DNA of 64,000 nucleotides from Actinomycetes bacterium (lineage in GTDB: Bacteria; Actinomycetota; Actinomycetes; JAJZTN01): NCBI GenBank assembly GCA_021848885.1, contig JAJZTN010000001.1:148-64147 (forward strand). Direction: 5' to 3'. The position numbers and the translations under genes were made by a program. This document shows positions 16,800 to 20,950 of this stretch, one piece after another. Under the pieces are notes generated by a model. It was not told where the DNA came from, made no database searches, and worked only from the letters and a program-made list of their open reading frames with translations. Positions within the stretch are counted from its first letter, which is position 1, and every line of letters starts with the position of its first letter.

Positions 16800-16861
16800 G
16801 CGCGCCCTGTGTCGTGCCATCCGCCCTGCCCAGGCCCGACCGTCAGCGACCGGCAGCGGCG

Positions 16862-17233
16862 CGGTCGGTCGTCCCCGGGGCGACCCCGGCCCACACGGCT
16901 GAACTGGTCCTGCGGCTACGCAAGCAGCTGTCCGAGGCCGGGCTGGACGCCGGCGCCGACACCATCGGCTGGCACCTGACCCACCACCACGGCACGACGC
17001 TGTCCCGAGCGACGATCAACCGGATCCTGGTCCGGGCCGGCGCAGTCACCCCGGAACCCGCGAAGCGCCCGAAGAGCAGCTACCTGCGGTTCGAGGCCGA
17101 GCTACCGAACGAGACCTGGCAGGCCGACTTCACCCACTACCGCCTCTCCGACGGCGCCCGCCGCATCAGCCACCGCGGCGGTACCCGACGCATCGAGGAA
17201 GGCACCGACGTCGAGATCCTCACCTGGCTCGAC
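16862..17233 (+). pseudogene. IS481-family transposase, internal 5' fragment (truncated at both ends)
   Basis: The translation AELVLRLRKQLSEAGLDAGADTIGWHLTHHH...KRPKSSYLRFEAELPNETWQADFTHYRLSDG...TDVEILTWLD matches the conserved N-terminal/early DDE region of IS481-family transposases. Homology stops abruptly at about 17233. Confidence 0.6.
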
Positions 17234-17824
17234 GGTGGCGATCAGGAACTTGCGCAGCGTCTTGGCCTCGGCGTTGGGGATGACGCTCATCCTGGCCCGC
17301 CCGTAGCCCCGCGGTTCGCGCAGCTCCACCGCGATCACCACCAACGTCTTGCCGAGCGCGCCGCATCCTCGCGGGCCCGGTTCCTCGCCGCTGATGCAGG
17401 TCTCGTCGACCTCGACCCGGCCGGTCAGGACCTCTCGGCCGGGCCGCACCGTCGCGGTCCGGTAGCGGTGCAGCATCGCCCACGCCGTCTGGTAGGAGCC
17501 CAGCCCGAGCAACTTCTGCATCGTCAACGCCGACGCCCCGCCCGGATCGGCGGTCATGTACCAAGCCGCGGCGAACCACACCGTCAACCCCGTACGCGTA
17601 TCCTGGAAGATCCTCCCCGAGGTGCGCGAGACCCGCTTACAGCACCCGCCGCAACGCCACACCCGGCCCGCACCCACCGTCGTGGCCACCCGTCCGCACT
17701 TCGGGCACATCGGCCCGGACGGCCAGCGCAGCCAGTCCAGGTAGTCCATGCACGCCTCGTCGTCGGGGAGCCACGCCCTCAACTCCGCGTACGAACCCGG
17801 ATAGTGCACACCGCGTGACGGCAC
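17233..17824 (-). pseudogene. IS1595-family (ISXO2-like) transposase, N-terminal fragment truncated at 3' end
   Basis: The zinc-ribbon CPKCG...CGGCC plus ...ARMSVIPNAEAKTLRKFLIATVEPG is typical of IS1595-family transposases. Homology ends where the IS481 fragment abuts. The low-GC patch 17825-17900 just upstream may be the element terminus. Confidence 0.6.
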
Positions 17825-18214
17825 ACGATGAACCTGCCTCAGGTGGCAGTGAAATGGATAACCCGCTAACCCATTAGCCGAATTCGGTGAAGTTCAGAGT
17901 GGCGTCGGCGATCAGCGCAGCCCGGTCGAATGCGGAGCCGTCCTCATATCCGTTGAACAGCAGTCGGACCAGGATGGCGTCGTCCGGCAGGGGCGCCTCA
18001 TCGCGGATCAGACGCTGGCGGGCCATTCTCCGAGCCTGCGGGCCGGACCAGTTGCTGACCGGCACTGAACGACCGCTATGTGATGGGGTCTTGGATCGCT
18101 GATCAGGCTTCGATGGGGCGCGCGCTGGCGGAATCTCTCCACGTTCGTGCCCGGCCAAGCACGACGTCGGTCTCAGCGGCGTAGTCGTTCTTGTCGGGCC
18201 ACTCACGTCGTCTG

Positions 18215-18913
18215 TCAGGCGCCTGAGGTGGCCCGCACCCGGGTAGCCAGCGCCTCGGCAAAGGAGACGATGAGCGGGTGCGGCTGGGAGTCGCTGAGTT
18301 CGGGCTGGAAGAGAGTGGCGAGGAAGAACGGGTGCCCGGGCAACTCGATGACGCGGGCCATGCCGTCGTCGTCGCGACCCGAGACCACCAGCCCAGCGTC
18401 GACGAGCGTCTGCTCATACCGCTCGACCGGGCCGTAGCTGCAGTTGAAGCGCTCGGTACGGTGCAGGGCCCCGATCGCCGTGGCGGCAAGGGTCCGCGGC
18501 GCGAGATGCACCTGTGCCTCATGGCCGATGAGTGAGCACGCCAAGGGCGCGACGACGAGCACCTTGCCGTCCGGATCGTTCTCGGCGTGCCGTGCCTCGG
18601 TGACGCCGGCGACGTTTCGCGCGAACTCCAGAATCGCGTGCTGGAAGCCCCCGCAGCTCCCGAAGAACGGGATGTCGCCCTGGCGGGCCACGCGGACGGC
18701 CTCGAGCGCTCCGGCCTCGGATGCGTAGGGCGAACCGGGCACCAGCCAGACCCCGTCGAACGCCGCGATCTCGTTGGTCTCCACGTCGTCGGTGGCGACC
18801 CAGTAGGCCTCGATGGCCGGGCCGGCGAGGGCAGCGAGCACATCCGGAATACGGGTGTGGGCTGCGACATGCGGTGATCGGTCTCCGACGAGGGCGAGGC
18901 GCGGGGTTCTCAT
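18215..18913 (-). CDS. Class I glutamine amidotransferase-like protein (CTP-synthase C-terminal-domain-related family)
   Basis: The Cys-His-Glu triad context reads FFGSCGGFQHAI...HPFFLATLFQPE. The protein resembles the PyrG GATase domain but stands alone. The catalytic Cys is not encoded by an in-frame TGA, so this is not the selenoprotein form. Confidence 0.75.
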   Translation of the reverse strand: MRTPRLALVGDRSPHVAAHTRIPDVLAALAGPAIEAYWVATDDVETNEIAAFDGVWLVPGSPYASEAGALEAVRVARQGDIPFFGSCGGFQHAILEFARNVAGVTEARHAENDPDGKVLVVAPLACSLIGHEAQVHLAPRTLAATAIGALHRTERFNCSYGPVERYEQTLVDAGLVVSGRDDDGMARVIELPGHPFFLATLFQPELSDSQPHPLIVSFAEALATRVRATSGA

Positions 18914-18938
18914 AGCCTGATCGTGTCAGCCAACTCCG

Positions 18939-18953
18939 ATCGTGTGAAACGAT
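18939..18953. promoter_or_regulatory. LysR-type T-N11-A box (ATCGT-gtgaaac-GAT), within four GATCGT repeats, in the divergent GATase/LysR intergenic region
   Basis: ATCGT and ACGAT form an inverted repeat with T-N11-A spacing. It is centred in the 74-bp spacer between the divergent starts. GATCGT occurs four times across 18918-18985. Confidence 0.5.
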
Positions 18954-18987
18954 CGTTTGAGATGTTCCGATAAGGGAAGGTGATCGT

Positions 18988-19893
18988 TTGGACATCCGTG
19001 CACTGCGCAGTTTTCTCACCGTCCTCGAACTGACGTCGTTCTCGCGCGCGGCCGAGAGCCTCGGATTCACCCAGTCGGCGATCTCGCAGCAGATCGCCAC
19101 CCTTGAGCGCGAGATCGGCGCCACGCTCGTGGTGCGCCGACCCGTGGGCCCAACACGGGTCGGCGAGCGCTTCGCTGAGCATGCCCGAGAGATCCTGGCC
19201 ACGCTCGACGCGGCGCGCGCCGACACGAAACGGCTCATGGACCTTGACCTGATCGACCCGGTCGTACGGGTCGGGCTGAGCCCGGCCGCCGATGACCGGC
19301 TGATGACCGACGCGATGTCCGGACGCGCCACCCATGCCTCGCACTTCCTGGTCGGCGAGCCTGCAATGGTCGCCGAGCGGTTCAACCTCGGCGCCGTCGA
19401 CCTTGCGGTGGTTGACGGCGTGACCGCGCCGAGCGACCCGCTTGCGATCCGCTACCTGAGCGGCACCTCGGTACGCGTCGTGCGTGAGTCATCACTGTCG
19501 GTCCTGATGCCGGTCGACCATCCATTCGCCCGGCGCCGCGGAGTGGACCTGGCTGCGCTCGGAGCCGCCCTGTGGGTGGACGCGCCGGCCGGCGCCTGCC
19601 CTTCCGCGGCTCTCGGGGCCGCGGCAAGGGAACCGCTACGGCTAGGGATCCGCTACGACGGCGCCCGACGCGCGACGCTGCACGCCCTGGTGCGATCCGG
19701 GCGCGGCCTCGCCTGCGAGCCTGCAGACTCCCCGGTCGGCCCTGGTCTGGTTCTCGTGCCGCTACGCTCCCCGCGCCTCACACATCGCATCGAGGTCTGG
19801 TGGCACGAGCCCGACCGTCGGGCCGTCCTTGAGGTGAAGGAAGGACTCGTAGCGCCGTCCGCCTGGTGGCAAAAGGGTGGTCGTGGCCGTTGA
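18988..19893 (+). CDS. LysR-family transcriptional regulator
   Basis: The N-terminal HTH reads MDIRALRSFLTVLELTSFSRAAESLGFTQSAISQQIATLEREIG, followed by a substrate-binding domain. The gene is divergent from the GATase gene. A TTG start is likely. Confidence 0.9.
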   Translation: MDIRALRSFLTVLELTSFSRAAESLGFTQSAISQQIATLEREIGATLVVRRPVGPTRVGERFAEHAREILATLDAARADTKRLMDLDLIDPVVRVGLSPAADDRLMTDAMSGRATHASHFLVGEPAMVAERFNLGAVDLAVVDGVTAPSDPLAIRYLSGTSVRVVRESSLSVLMPVDHPFARRRGVDLAALGAALWVDAPAGACPSAALGAAAREPLRLGIRYDGARRATLHALVRSGRGLACEPADSPVGPGLVLVPLRSPRLTHRIEVWWHEPDRRAVLEVKEGLVAPSAWWQKGGRGR

Positions 19894-20520
19894 TCAAGTG
19901 GTACGTGCTCCTCTGGATCAATTCGGCGGTCCGTCGAACATCGCTTAACGCCACTTAAGCGCTGTCAAGCGACCGTGCAGTTTCGCGCTTATCGAACGCA
20001 TGCGTTGCGTGCAAGTCGGTGCGATTGCGGGGTCGGCTCCGGGAACCCGGGACAAGGAGCGCGCGCGATGAGATGGCCCTCTACAGGCTCGGTCCGATGC
20101 CGCGTTCATGGCCGGGTGGGTACACGGGGGACAGCGAGTGCCAACGCGTGGGCTCGGCCGCTCGTGCCCGGTTCGCGTCCTCGGTGATCCTCTCGACCGC
20201 GGCTCGTGCTGCCCTGTCGTGTATGAGCTGGGCGGCCTCGGTGACGGGTAGGGCCTCGAGCTCGGCGAGGGTGCGACGTGCGTGGGCTGCGCGGCTGTGC
20301 GACGCGGCGGCGCGGGCCTCGGCGCCGCTGGACCCCTCGCCGACACTCCGCCGGAGCGCCGCCCGTGCGTGTGCGTGGTGCGTGGTGAGGTCATGCAGCT
20401 GTTGGTGGGCTTGTGCGGCGCCCTGTCGCGCTTCGATGACTCGCGGGTCGGTGTCGGCTCGCTGCCCGGCGACGTCCTCGTCCCAGGCGCAGATGCCGAC
20501 CTCCGTCTGCGGCACGTCGC

Positions 20521-20772
20521 CCTGAGACCCACGACCGCGTCCGCCACGACAAGATCGACAAAGCCGGCACCGTCACCCTGCGCGTCGCCTGCCGACTGCG
20601 CCACATCGGCGTCGGTCGAACCTACGCCGGAACCGACATCATCCTGCTCGTCCAAGACCTCCACACCACCATCGTGAACGCCACCACCGGCGAGATCCTC
20701 CGCGACCTGATCATCGACCCACGAAAGGACTACCAGCCCACCGGACGTCCACCCGGCCCCACAAAAACCTAG
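20521..20772 (+). pseudogene. IS481-family transposase, C-terminal fragment
   Basis: The translation ...[82 protein letters not shown] is the characteristic C-terminus of actinobacterial IS481-family transposases. There is no start and no upstream catalytic core. Confidence 0.6.
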
Positions 20773-20773
20773 A

Positions 20774-20798
20774 CCGGACCTGCAGATCGCAGGTCCGG
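20774..20798. terminator. GC-rich hairpin (CCGGACCTGC-agat-GCAGGTCCGG) between the IS481 fragment stop and the tRNA-Pro 3' end; likely tRNA terminator / element boundary
   Basis: A perfect 10-bp inverted repeat with a 4-nt loop lies immediately 3' of the minus-strand tRNA. Confidence 0.45.
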
Positions 20799-20825
20799 CC
20801 CATTCCGATGTCCCGAGACATCACA

Positions 20826-20901
20826 TGGTCGGGGTGGCGGGATTCGAACCCACGACCTCTTCGTCCCGAACGAAGCGCGCTACCAAGCTGCGCCACACCC
20901 C
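20826..20901 (-). tRNA. tRNA-Pro (anticodon CGG), with encoded CCA
   Basis: The reverse complement CGGGGTGTGGCGCAGCTTGGTAGCGCGCTTCGTTCGGGACGAAGAGGTCGTGGGTTCGAATCCCGCCACCCCGACCA folds as a cloverleaf. The anticodon loop is UUCGGGA, giving anticodon CGG. T-arm GGTTCGAATCC. Confidence 0.85.
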
Positions 20902-20950
20902 GAAGTGCCGCCGCAGTCTAGCCGAGCGTCGGGGGCCCGGCGAACCGAGC

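What the first reader, a model, noticed from the sequence alone, without database searches (positions are those of the whole stretch)
16800..20905. A ~4 kb islet of decayed, interlocked IS481 and IS1595 transposase fragments carrying a GATase-LysR pair, at the 3' end of tRNA-Pro(CGG)
- Three non-contiguous transposase fragments delimit the segment between the ABC-transporter operon (ends 16799) and the tRNA-Pro 3' end (20826).
- An internal IS481-family fragment sits on the + strand at ~16862-17233.
- An IS1595-family N-terminal fragment on the - strand (17233-17824) abuts it exactly where IS481 homology breaks, with a low-GC patch at its outer end (17825-17900).
- A separate C-terminal IS481 fragment on the + strand (20521-20772) ends at a 10-bp-stem hairpin immediately 3' of the tRNA.
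- The two IS481 pieces share orientation. They look like halves of one transposase gene separated by ~3.3 kb, and the catalytic middle is absent.
- That 3.3 kb carries a standalone class-I glutamine-amidotransferase-like gene, a divergent LysR regulator gene with a T-N11-A box between them, and two low-complexity ORFs (17874-18206, 20081-20515).
- tRNA 3' ends are classical island integration sites. This therefore reads as a small acquired cargo module that has since been disrupted by repeated IS insertion and deletion.
- I do not recognise the GATase+LysR pair as a described system.
Basis: partly seen in the sequence, partly recalled or inferred. Interest (0 to 1): 0.6.

Follow-up and report, generated by a model that had tools for sequence, protein, structure and literature searches.

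The report
Mobile-DNA scar beside tRNA-Pro gene
This 4-kb stretch is a dead patchwork of two broken insertion sequences and a plasmid-gene stump around one intact, widely conserved regulator-enzyme gene pair; it sits at the tRNA because this kind of IS481 element seems to insert specifically at tRNA gene ends.

Summary
Window 16850-20825 contains two collinear IS481-family pieces, one IS1595-family piece, an intact GATase-like gene with a divergent LysR gene, and tRNA-Pro(CGG).

- **Hairpin:** it and the 26 bp after it are the IS481 right end, which abuts the tRNA's CCA. There is no integrase and no att repeat.
- **ORF 20081-20515:** it is the 3' stump of a TraA-like conjugative relaxase gene, not low-complexity noise.
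- **IS481/IS1595 junction:** it is an illegitimate join at a 13-bp microhomology.
- **GATase:** it belongs to the named but uncharacterised family NCBIfam NF004836. All 120 top homologues carry Gln in place of the catalytic His.
- **The gene pair:** it recurs with a co-varying LysR and conserved promoter motifs in Streptomyces, Saccharothrix, Phytohabitans and metagenomes, without IS elements.

The islet itself is an ordinary decayed mobile-DNA scar. The cargo was probably imported, but no close relative exists to show an empty site.

The unexpected result concerns the IS481 clade. In 5 of 6 relatives with readable flanks, the right end lies 15-16 bp from a tRNA T-loop motif. The 15-16 bp target duplications regenerate the tRNA end. 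This suggests tRNA-3'-end-specific insertion.

The parts
16850..17234 (+). IS481-family transposase fragment A, roughly residues 59-176 of about 410. It holds the HTH_32 part and the first catalytic D region. The left inverted repeat and the first ~58 codons are missing.
   Evidence: NF033577 match. 86% identity to P0121, including a rare 16-residue insert. DNA alignment to L093 and L094.
17222..17234 (.). Chimeric junction: a 13-bp microhomology (CGTCGAGCCAGGT on the - strand) shared by IS1595 sense and IS481 antisense sequence.
   Evidence: Six-sequence alignment. The window follows the IS1595 relatives on one side and the IS481 relatives on the other.
17222..17868 (-). IS1595-family fragment: left inverted repeat, 5' UTR and codons 1-201 of about 346. 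The 3' 40% of the element is missing. The annotated 240-aa ORF (17102-17824) reads through into antisense IS481.
   Evidence: Pfam and NCBIfam hits above cut-off. 88-91% nucleotide identity to L101, L103, L106 and L110. IR GTGGGTTATCCATTTCACTGCCACCTG defined in complete elements.
17859..17866 (.). 8-bp indel polymorphism (TAACCCGC) inside the IS1595 left inverted repeat. It is absent from strain variants L081 and L097.
17874..18206 (-). Unassigned ORF. Other pipelines call only its last 50 codons as a gene. Its stop codon lies a few bp from the IS1595 end.
   Evidence: No Pfam, NCBIfam or plasmid match. Gene calls.
18215..18913 (-). [quoted passage not shown] The Cys nucleophile (GSCGGFQ) is present and the catalytic His is replaced by Gln (LFQPE).
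   Evidence: NF004836, E 2e-84, 282 bits against a cut-off of 260. Alignment to E. coli CTP synthase 1s1m. LFQPE in 120 of 120 homologues.
18914..18987 (.). 74-bp divergent promoter region with an ATC-N9-GAT / T-N11-A box at 18939-18953 and other conserved blocks (ATCA, CTnAT, ATCGTT).
18988..19893 (+). Intact LysR-type regulator gene that co-varies with the GATase-like gene.
   Evidence: HTH_1 and LysR_substrate above cut-off. LysR/GATase identities to orthologous pairs are 67/75%, 64/71% and ~40/59%.
19894..20080 (.). Spacer between the convergent LysR gene and the relaxase stump. Three contigs from two independent assemblies end at 20029-20061.
20081..20521 (-). 3' stump (last ~147 codons) of a TraA/MobF-like conjugative relaxase-helicase gene, cut at the junction with IS481 fragment B.
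   Evidence: 61 homologues, all matching through their C-terminal ends. P0385 carries AAA_30 and TraA_Ti helicase matches upstream of the homologous tail. The reading frame shows homology from 'GDVPQT'.
20524..20772 (+). IS481-family transposase fragment B: the last 82 codons plus the stop.
20770..20802 (-). IS481-borne hairpin. On the tRNA-sense strand it is followed by GGTTTTTG, which looks like a terminator.
   Evidence: Conserved in position in four elements, with 3 compensatory pairs. Fold z-score -5.5. Hit in the terminator scan.
20800..20825 (+). IS481 right inverted repeat (...CCGATGTCCCGAGACATCACA), ending exactly at the tRNA's CCA.
   Evidence: Alignment with L094 and L093. 26/26 identical in Jiangella asiatica at the same position.
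20826..20902 (-). tRNA-Pro(CGG), intact. The neighbouring metallophosphoesterase-tRNA-Pro arrangement is conserved across Actinomycetota.

Best explanation
The segment is a non-mobile scar built from at least three mobile elements around one functional two-gene module.

**Shown**
- An IS481-family element sits with its intact right end directly on the CCA end of tRNA-Pro(CGG). It carries its own terminator-like hairpin.
- Only about 51% of that element type remains, as two collinear pieces lacking 152 codons of DDE core, the first ~58 codons and the left end.
- Between the pieces lie four things: the 5' 58% of an IS1595 element, an unassigned small ORF, an intact LysR/GATase-like pair, and the 3' stump of a conjugative relaxase gene.
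- One junction is a 13-bp microhomology join. It therefore arose by illegitimate recombination, not transposition.

**Inferred**
- The IS481 element reached the tRNA through its own target preference: it inserts 15-16 bp from the T-loop with a 15-16 bp duplication.
- DNA from a conjugative plasmid or ICE, carrying the gene pair and an IS1595, was then brought in between two IS481 copies. This could have happened by IS481-homology cointegration or as a composite transposon.
- Deletions later trimmed both IS481 copies, the IS1595 and the relaxase gene. Only the selected pair stayed intact.

**The pair (inferred)**
- LysR probably binds the ATC-N9-GAT box in the 74-bp divergent promoter. It would then control a Cys-dependent hydrolase of the CTP-synthase-GATase fold.
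- That enzyme lacks the canonical His, so it is probably not a classical glutaminase. Its substrate is unknown.
For: **IS481 and its position**
- Family assignments.
- Both IS481 pieces are 85-86% identical to one full-length protein, with a 152-residue gap between them.
- Right inverted repeat and hairpin are conserved, and the repeat abuts the CCA.
- The same repeat sits at the same position in J. asiatica, whose tRNA T-arm differs.

**Target duplications in relatives**
- 15-bp duplication of the tRNA-Lys 3' end in L181.
- 15-bp duplication of a tRNA-like end on the Arthrobacter plasmid.
- 16-bp duplication in L094.

**Interior of the islet**
- Microhomology junction.
- IS1595 end points.
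- Relaxase stump.
- Lower GC3 in the islet genes.

**The gene pair**
- It is conserved and co-varying elsewhere.
- NF004836 membership and the His-to-Gln change.

**Stability**
- All strain-level variants carry the same arrangement.
Against: - No close relative is available, so no empty tRNA-Pro site at short evolutionary distance could be shown.
- The left IS481 end and any target duplication are gone. The number of original IS481 copies and the order of events therefore cannot be reconstructed.
- The GC3 difference is modest for the GATase gene (0.86) and the IS1595 piece (0.87).
- tRNA targeting rests on only five insertions. Two of them lie next to tRNA-like fragments that ARAGORN and Rfam do not call.
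- A more distant relative in Rhodococcus has a 15-bp duplication in a non-tRNA palindrome.
- No expression, binding or activity data exist for the pair.
Confidence: 0.6

Rival explanations
1. One IS481 copy was split. A single element at the tRNA had 456 bp of its core replaced by a 3.3-kb foreign segment through two illegitimate joins. The two pieces are then literally halves of one gene.
For: The pieces are collinear, share orientation, do not overlap, and are equally similar (85-86%) to the same relative. One join is a microhomology junction. A copy of a tRNA-specific IS away from any tRNA would otherwise need explaining.
Against: It needs a double illegitimate capture of a linear fragment whose two ends are both truncated genes. 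Tandem or double hits at one site do seem to occur in this clade: the L094 left flank carries an extra right-repeat-like remnant. The data cannot separate one copy from two.
Confidence: 0.3
2. A classical integrase-mediated genomic islet integrated into the tRNA-Pro 3' end. IS elements hit it later and it lost its integrase.
For: tRNA 3' ends are common island sites (general knowledge). A conjugative-element gene stump is present. The region between asd and tRNA-Pro varies among relatives.
Against: No integrase domain appears in any ORF of 16800-20825. No direct repeat of the tRNA 3' end occurs at 31 nt or 15 nt near the islet. The sequence touching the tRNA is the IS481 terminal repeat, with zero spacer.
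Confidence: 0.07
3. The LysR/GATase pair is ancestral chromosomal DNA of this lineage, and the IS elements merely inserted around it. Nothing was acquired.
For: The pair is chromosomal and IS-free in several genera, and is syntenic within Streptomyces. All strains of this population carry it.
Against: None of 80 loci sharing the PBP-YqeY-metallophosphoesterase-tRNA-Pro synteny has the pair there. A relaxase stump lies directly beside LysR. LysR has the lowest GC3 in the neighbourhood, 0.80. The pair's neighbours differ between genera.
Confidence: 0.08

Closest known systems
IS481 family insertion sequences (ISfinder family; NCBIfam NF033577)
   Same: HTH plus rve-type DDE transposase in a single ORF. 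Terminal inverted repeats start with TGT. Element size is about 1.34 kb. Target duplications fall at the long end of the family's reported 4-15 bp range (my recollection of ISfinder). Relatives are annotated as IS481 family transposase.
   Different: The window copy is only two fragments. This clade appears to insert at a fixed 15-16 bp from a tRNA T-loop motif and regenerates the tRNA end. It also carries a terminator-like hairpin facing the tRNA. I found no description of this in the searchable literature. From memory, classical IS481 targets NCTAGN with 6-bp duplications.
IS1595 family (ISCsp2-like; NCBIfam NF033547, Pfam PF12760/PF12762)
   Same: N-terminal zinc ribbon plus the start of the ISXO2-like DDE domain. 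The 27-bp terminal inverted repeat is shared with complete 1.12-kb relatives.
   Different: The element is truncated after codon 201 by a microhomology join and cannot transpose. Its IRL carries an 8-bp indel that is polymorphic among strains.
[quoted passage not shown]
   Same: Full-length match above the curated cut-off. The GxCxG nucleophile motif is the site of Sec in the selenoprotein members (GxUxG, PMC13188914). The divergent LysR neighbour recurs in other actinomycetes.
   Different: This is the Cys form, not the Sec form. It lies inside an IS scar rather than in the ordinary chromosomal contexts seen elsewhere. Compared with true CTP synthase GATase domains, the family has Gln where the catalytic His sits.
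tRNA-gene-targeting mobile elements: integrase-type islands/ICEs, type V-K CAST and Tn7-like elements, and Ty3 and Dictyostelium TRE retrotransposons
   Same: They use tRNA genes as safe, conserved landing sites. Like tRNA-integrating islands, the insertion here leaves an intact tRNA.
   Different: Here the agent would be a plain one-ORF DDE insertion sequence. The tRNA end is restored by the target-site duplication, not by an att copy carried on the element. No tyrosine integrase, TnsD/TniQ protein or guide RNA is present.
IS-mediated plasmid cointegrates and composite transposons that later decay
   Same: Same-orientation IS pieces bracket foreign genes, including a conjugation-gene remnant. 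The junctions look like deletion scars.
   Different: Neither flanking IS is complete, no outer target duplication survives, and the unit can no longer move.

Membership tests
IS481 family | rve-type DDE transposase with an N-terminal HTH | tested here: met
   As fragments only. NF033577 E 1e-15, below the full-length cut-off as expected for a fragment. The closest full-length homologues carry PF00665 and PF13683. Relatives are annotated as IS481. The second D and the E of the DDE lie in the missing 152 residues.
IS481 family | Terminal inverted repeats (TGT...) at both ends, plus a target-site duplication | tested here: inconclusive
   The right repeat is present at 20800-20825. No left repeat or duplication exists in the window. 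Complete relatives have both repeats and 15-16 bp duplications.
IS1595 family | Zn-ribbon plus ISXO2-like DDE transposase | tested here: met
   PF12760 41.9 bits (cut-off 25.4), PF12762 32.4 (27) and NF033547 89.6 (75). Only profile positions 2-79 of 153 of the DDE domain are present.
IS1595 family | Complete element bounded by inverted repeats | tested here: not met
   Only the left repeat and 647 of about 1119 bp remain. Homology stops at 17222.
[quoted passage not shown] | Whole-protein score above the curated cut-off, with full-length coverage | tested here: met
   282.1 bits against 260. Residues 5-222 align to profile positions 2-227 of 228.
Class-I glutamine amidotransferase (catalytic triad type) | Cys-His-Glu catalytic triad | tested here: not met
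   The Cys (GSCGGFQ) and Glu are present. The His position of E. coli PyrG (FHPEF) is Gln (FQPEL). LFQPE occurs in 120 of 120 homologues.
LysR-type transcriptional regulator with a divergent target gene | HTH_1 and LysR substrate-binding domains, divergent arrangement, T-N11-A box in the intergenic region | tested here: met
   PF00126 66 bits and PF03466 36 bits. The intergenic region is 74 bp. ATC-N9-GAT lies at 18939-18953 and is conserved in L088 and L090. DNA binding itself cannot be tested here.
tRNA-integrated genomic island / ICE | Site-specific integrase next to the tRNA, and direct att repeats of the tRNA 3' end | tested here: not met
   No integrase family hit in the islet ORFs. No repeat of the tRNA 3' end near the islet.
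Conjugative relaxase (TraA/MobF type) gene | Relaxase and helicase domains | tested here: not met
   Only the C-terminal tail (147 codons) is present. Homologue P0385 links that tail to AAA_30 and TraA_Ti helicase regions. The window feature is a remnant, not a gene.
Composite transposon | Two complete IS copies with functional outer ends flanking the cargo | tested here: not met
   Both IS481 pieces are truncated and the outer left end is absent.

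The most novel reading that the evidence does not exclude
The IS481 fragments belong to a clade of plain DDE insertion sequences that recognise the T-arm/acceptor end of tRNA genes, and of tRNA-like att fragments on plasmids.
- They insert in one orientation, 15-16 bp from the T-loop.
- They rebuild the tRNA 3' end through a 15-16 bp target duplication.
- They supply a replacement terminator hairpin for the tRNA.

Such elements would seed homology at tRNA genes and at the att sites of integrative elements. That would offer an integrase-independent route for plasmid or ICE DNA, here the LysR/GATase pair with a relaxase stump, to lodge at tRNA loci.
Probability: 0.55. Interest if true: 0.6.

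Novelty: new member of a known kind. Interest (0 to 1): 0.38.

Why it matters
The islet itself is ordinary. It shows how IS decay, microhomology deletions and plasmid remnants can leave a single useful gene pair stranded at a tRNA locus. Annotation pipelines would do better to label the 240-aa and 144-aa ORFs as remnants.

Two side results could matter more:
- **A tRNA-end-specific IS481 clade.** This would be a minimal, one-protein example of safe-site targeting in bacteria. It would also give a different explanation for 'islands at tRNAs' that lack integrases. It is directly testable with a complete element and a tRNA target plasmid.
- **The NF004836 family.** It is widespread in Streptomyces and relatives and always paired with a LysR regulator. 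It keeps the Cys (or Sec) nucleophile but has lost the catalytic His of glutamine amidotransferases. Its annotation as a glutamine amidotransferase or CTP synthase is therefore probably misleading.

Tried and rejected
- **att repeat or target duplication of the tRNA 3' end.** None near the islet at 31 nt with up to 3 mismatches or at 15 nt with up to 2. The 15-nt hits elsewhere are G-rich coding matches.
- **A second IS481 inverted repeat in the window.** None.
- **Other copies of islet DNA in the window.** None. One 30% tblastn hit at 52719-52997 was judged to be chance.
- **Empty-site test.**
  - The genome-contig scan gave only relatives at 67% identity or less.
  - The protein search gave 77% at best, on a 1-kb contig.
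  - All 100%-class contigs are the same population and carry the same islet.
- **tblastn of both small ORFs against plasmids.** No match.
- **Viral contig scans** for the inverted-repeat pattern and for the transposase. One chance coding hit and nothing else.
- **L033.** Its partial similarity to the inverted repeat after tRNA-Pro is an ordinary hairpin with no transposase nearby, so it was not counted.
- **L094 and L185 flanks.** They are tRNA-like by eye but not called by ARAGORN; Rfam, run on L094 only, also gave no tRNA hit. They are counted only as 'tRNA-like'.
- **Short proteins covering 94-98% of my artificial N+C query.** At first they seemed to share the window's deletion end points. 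Their end points differ, and they were selected by the design of the query, so I draw no conclusion for the window.
- **Strain SNPs in the pair.** Too few (2 synonymous and 2 non-synonymous in the GATase gene, 2 and 0 in LysR) to infer selection.
- **Literature.** No paper in the searchable library links IS481 to tRNA targets. ISfinder itself could not be consulted.

Full report
**1. What is in the sequence**

The window comes from a high-GC actinomycete. Contigs of MAG GCA_027321495.1 and of several metagenome assemblies match it at 99.5-100% identity.

ARAGORN finds one tRNA, tRNA-Pro(CGG), at 20826-20902 on the - strand. A five-gene sugar-type ABC operon ends at 16799 with a MalK-like ATPase gene.

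**2. The IS481 fragments**

- Fragment A matches NCBIfam NF033577 at profile positions 56-144 (E 1e-15).
- Both fragments hit the same annotated IS481 family transposase on an Arthrobacter plasmid.
- A search with the two fragments joined found full-length rve-domain transposases. The best, P0121, is 86% identical to fragment A and 85% to fragment B.
- Fragment A shares a rare 16-residue insert with P0121.
- In nearly all of the best-matching full-length relatives, 152 residues lie between the two matched stretches. The missing part holds the second D and the E of the DDE motif.
- DNA alignment with a full-length element (L093) and a deletion derivative (L094) places fragment A at about 16850-17234. 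The first ~58 codons and the left inverted repeat are absent.

Alignment of the right side changes the reading of the hairpin. Homology does not stop at the transposase stop codon (20772). It runs through the hairpin and a terminal inverted repeat...CCGATGTCCCGAGACATCACA, ending at 20825. The next base is the first base of the complement of the tRNA's CCA.

The hairpin keeps its position in four elements, with three compensatory pairs. It folds well beyond shuffled controls, with z = -5.5. On the tRNA-sense strand it is followed by GGTTTTTG and is picked up by the terminator scan.

**3. The IS1595 fragment and its junction**

Pfam PF12760 and PF12762 and NCBIfam NF033547 all pass their cut-offs. 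Sixteen metagenome relatives define the left end of the element, GTGGGTTATCCATTTCACTGCC.... Complete elements are about 1.12 kb with 27-bp inverted repeats.

The window is 88-91% identical in DNA to four of these elements from 17868 down to 17222, and no further. The 'low-GC patch' is therefore the IS1595 5' UTR and left repeat. Strain variants differ by an 8-bp indel inside that repeat.

At 17222-17234 the window sequence switches from IS1595 sense to IS481 antisense within a shared 13-bp stretch, CGTCGAGCCAGGT. This marks a microhomology-mediated illegitimate join, not a transposition junction. The annotated 240-aa 'transposase' ORF is a fusion that reads into antisense IS481.

**4. The two small ORFs**

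ORF 20081-20515 is not noise.
- An exhaustive HMMER search found 61 homologues, 25 of them at E <= 1e-10. All match through their C-terminal ends, in proteins of roughly 190 to 655 residues.
- One homologue, P0385, carries an AAA_30 domain and matches the helicase part of conjugative relaxase TraA (E 3e-26) upstream of the homologous tail.
- A second, P0368, begins with the same helicase C-terminal motif.
- Homology in the window starts at 'GDVPQT', three bases from where IS481 fragment B begins.

The ORF is therefore the 3' stump of a relaxase-type gene, cut at the junction with IS481.

ORF 17874-18206 has no detectable relative.

**5. The cargo pair**

[quoted passage not shown] A 2026 review lists this family as a selenoprotein family with a GxUxG motif (PMC13188914).
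- **Distribution.** It is common in Streptomyces and other actinomycetes at about 55-60% identity. A few metagenome relatives reach 70-75%.
- **Partner.** In every context retrieved, a LysR gene lies upstream and divergent. Most have a 64-79 bp spacer, and none has IS elements. The contexts are Saccharothrix, two Streptomyces genomes, Phytohabitans and four metagenome contigs.
- **Co-variation.** LysR identity tracks GATase identity at 67/75%, 64/71% and ~40/59%.
- **Promoter.** The intergenic regions share invariant blocks. The ATC-N9-GAT box is conserved in the closest pairs.
- **Active site.** Alignment to E. coli CTP synthase shows the Cys nucleophile and the Glu are kept, but Gln replaces the catalytic His. 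All 120 top homologues read LFQPE.

The pair is thus a conserved, named but uncharacterised actinomycete module. It is probably not a canonical glutaminase.

**6. Acquired or ancestral**

*Synteny.*
- The block PBP - YqeY - metallophosphoesterase - tRNA-Pro(CGG) is conserved in the 80 related loci retrieved. None of them has the pair, or the ABC operon, beyond the tRNA.
- In several relatives, aspartokinase or a peptidase S9 gene lies 1.5-8 kb beyond the tRNA. In the window these lie about 12-15 kb beyond the tRNA, so this is a variable region.

*Composition.*
- GC3 of the islet genes is 0.80-0.87, against 0.90-0.96 for the flanking genes.
- Together with the relaxase stump, this favours import.

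*Limit of the test.*
- The closest relatives are only 64-77% identical in the neighbouring protein.
- Every strain-level contig has the same islet.
- The direct empty-site test was therefore not possible.

**7. Why it is at the tRNA**

No integrase and no att repeat exist. The IS481 clade itself appears to target tRNA ends.

| Case | Right-end flank | Target duplication |
|---|---|---|
| Window | Abuts the CCA of tRNA-Pro(CGG) | Left end lost |
| Jiangella asiatica (L031) | Same 26-nt right repeat directly after the CCA of its own tRNA-Pro(CGG), whose T-arm differs | Contig ends |
| L181, full-length element (57% identity) | 2 nt from tRNA-Lys(TTT) | 15 bp, ACGTAGGCCCCGTGG (tRNA 3' end) |
| L185, Arthrobacter plasmid (43-47% identity) | tRNA-like CCA/acceptor/T-arm | 15 bp, TGGTGCCCCGGGCGG |
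| L094, deletion derivative | T-loop-like motif | 16 bp |

In all five cases the IS end is 15-16 bp from GAnTnGAACC, and the transposase 3' end faces the tRNA.

Two results limit the claim:
- The other 76 tRNA-Pro loci in the retrieved set show no match to the IS repeat; those inspected have ordinary terminator hairpins.
- A more distant Rhodococcus relative (40% identity) has a 15-bp duplication in a non-tRNA palindrome, so the preference is not universal in the wider group.

I found no paper describing this behaviour. I could not query ISfinder.

**8. Most likely history (inferred)**

1. An IS481 element landed at the tRNA-Pro end.
2. Plasmid or ICE DNA carrying the relaxase gene, the LysR/GATase pair and an IS1595 came to lie between IS481 sequences. 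This happened through two copies (cointegrate or composite transposon) or by replacement of the core of one copy.
3. Deletions, at least one of them microhomology-mediated, removed most of it.

The data do not decide between one and two IS481 copies. What remains cannot move. Only the LysR/GATase-like pair and the tRNA look functional, and the IS hairpin probably now terminates the tRNA transcript.

**9. Verdict**

The finding is real, and the islet is an ordinary decayed mobile-DNA scar. Its cargo is a known-family, function-unknown module.

The worthwhile lead is the apparent tRNA-end specificity of this IS481 clade. A secondary lead is the His-less active site of the NF004836 family.

Noticed in passing
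window 20800-20826; L031 7886-7911; L181 1286-1300 and 2644-2658; L185 454-468 and 1805-1819; L094 2888-2903 and 3842-3857: The IS481 clade of the window fragments lies with its right end 15-16 bp from a tRNA T-loop motif in 5 of 6 examined insertions. These are tRNA-Pro twice, tRNA-Lys once, and two tRNA-like fragments. The 15-16 bp target duplications regenerate the tRNA end. The Rhodococcus relative L187 is the exception.
   Followed up: partly
proteins P0126, P0136, P0137, P0152; L094 3001-3783: Several metagenome 'genes' of 237-266 aa are internal-deletion derivatives of this IS481 transposase. They keep the HTH N-terminus and the C-terminal ~80 residues but lack the DDE core, each with different end points. 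They could be non-autonomous elements or inhibitor-like truncated proteins.
   Followed up: no
window 18215-18913 and homologues P0001-P0120: Every one of the 120 closest NF004836 family members reads LFQPE where CTP synthase GATase domains have the catalytic His (FHPE). The Cys nucleophile motif GxCGGxQ is kept in at least 99 of them.
   Followed up: partly
window 20029-20061 and 17525: Independent metagenome and MAG assemblies break at the same two places. L081, L098 and L099 end at 20029-20061. L096 and L097 end at 17525, inside the IS1595 fragment. This may reflect repeats elsewhere in the genome or alternative alleles in the population.
   Followed up: no
window 17859-17866: An 8-bp indel (TAACCCGC) inside the IS1595 left inverted repeat is polymorphic among otherwise >99.7% identical strains. 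It looks like slippage between two GGGTTA repeats.
   Followed up: partly
L094 2865-2903: The left flank of the L094 element carries a second sequence resembling the right inverted repeat (CTGTCTCAACACA), followed by the same 16-bp target. This suggests two successive hits at one site.
   Followed up: no
window 1-20902 versus L001, L003, L009-L011, L031, L033, and L005, L012, L019, L022: The dnaX-recR-DUF5063-aspartokinase block lies on opposite sides of the YqeY-metallophosphoesterase-tRNA-Pro block in different relatives. This implies an inversion with break points at the tRNA-Pro flank and between YqeY and the PBP gene. The tRNA flank is a recurrent rearrangement point.
   Followed up: no
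L017 12360-14650; L029 12337-14509: Two Streptacidiphilus loci carry two tRNA-Pro(CGG) genes about 2.2 kb apart, downstream of the metallophosphoesterase gene.
   Followed up: no
window 20750-20772: The Lys/Thr-rich last codons of the IS481 transposase (ACAAAAACC TAG) also encode, on the opposite strand, the T-run that follows the hairpin. Relatives have similar A-rich C-terminal codons.
   Followed up: no
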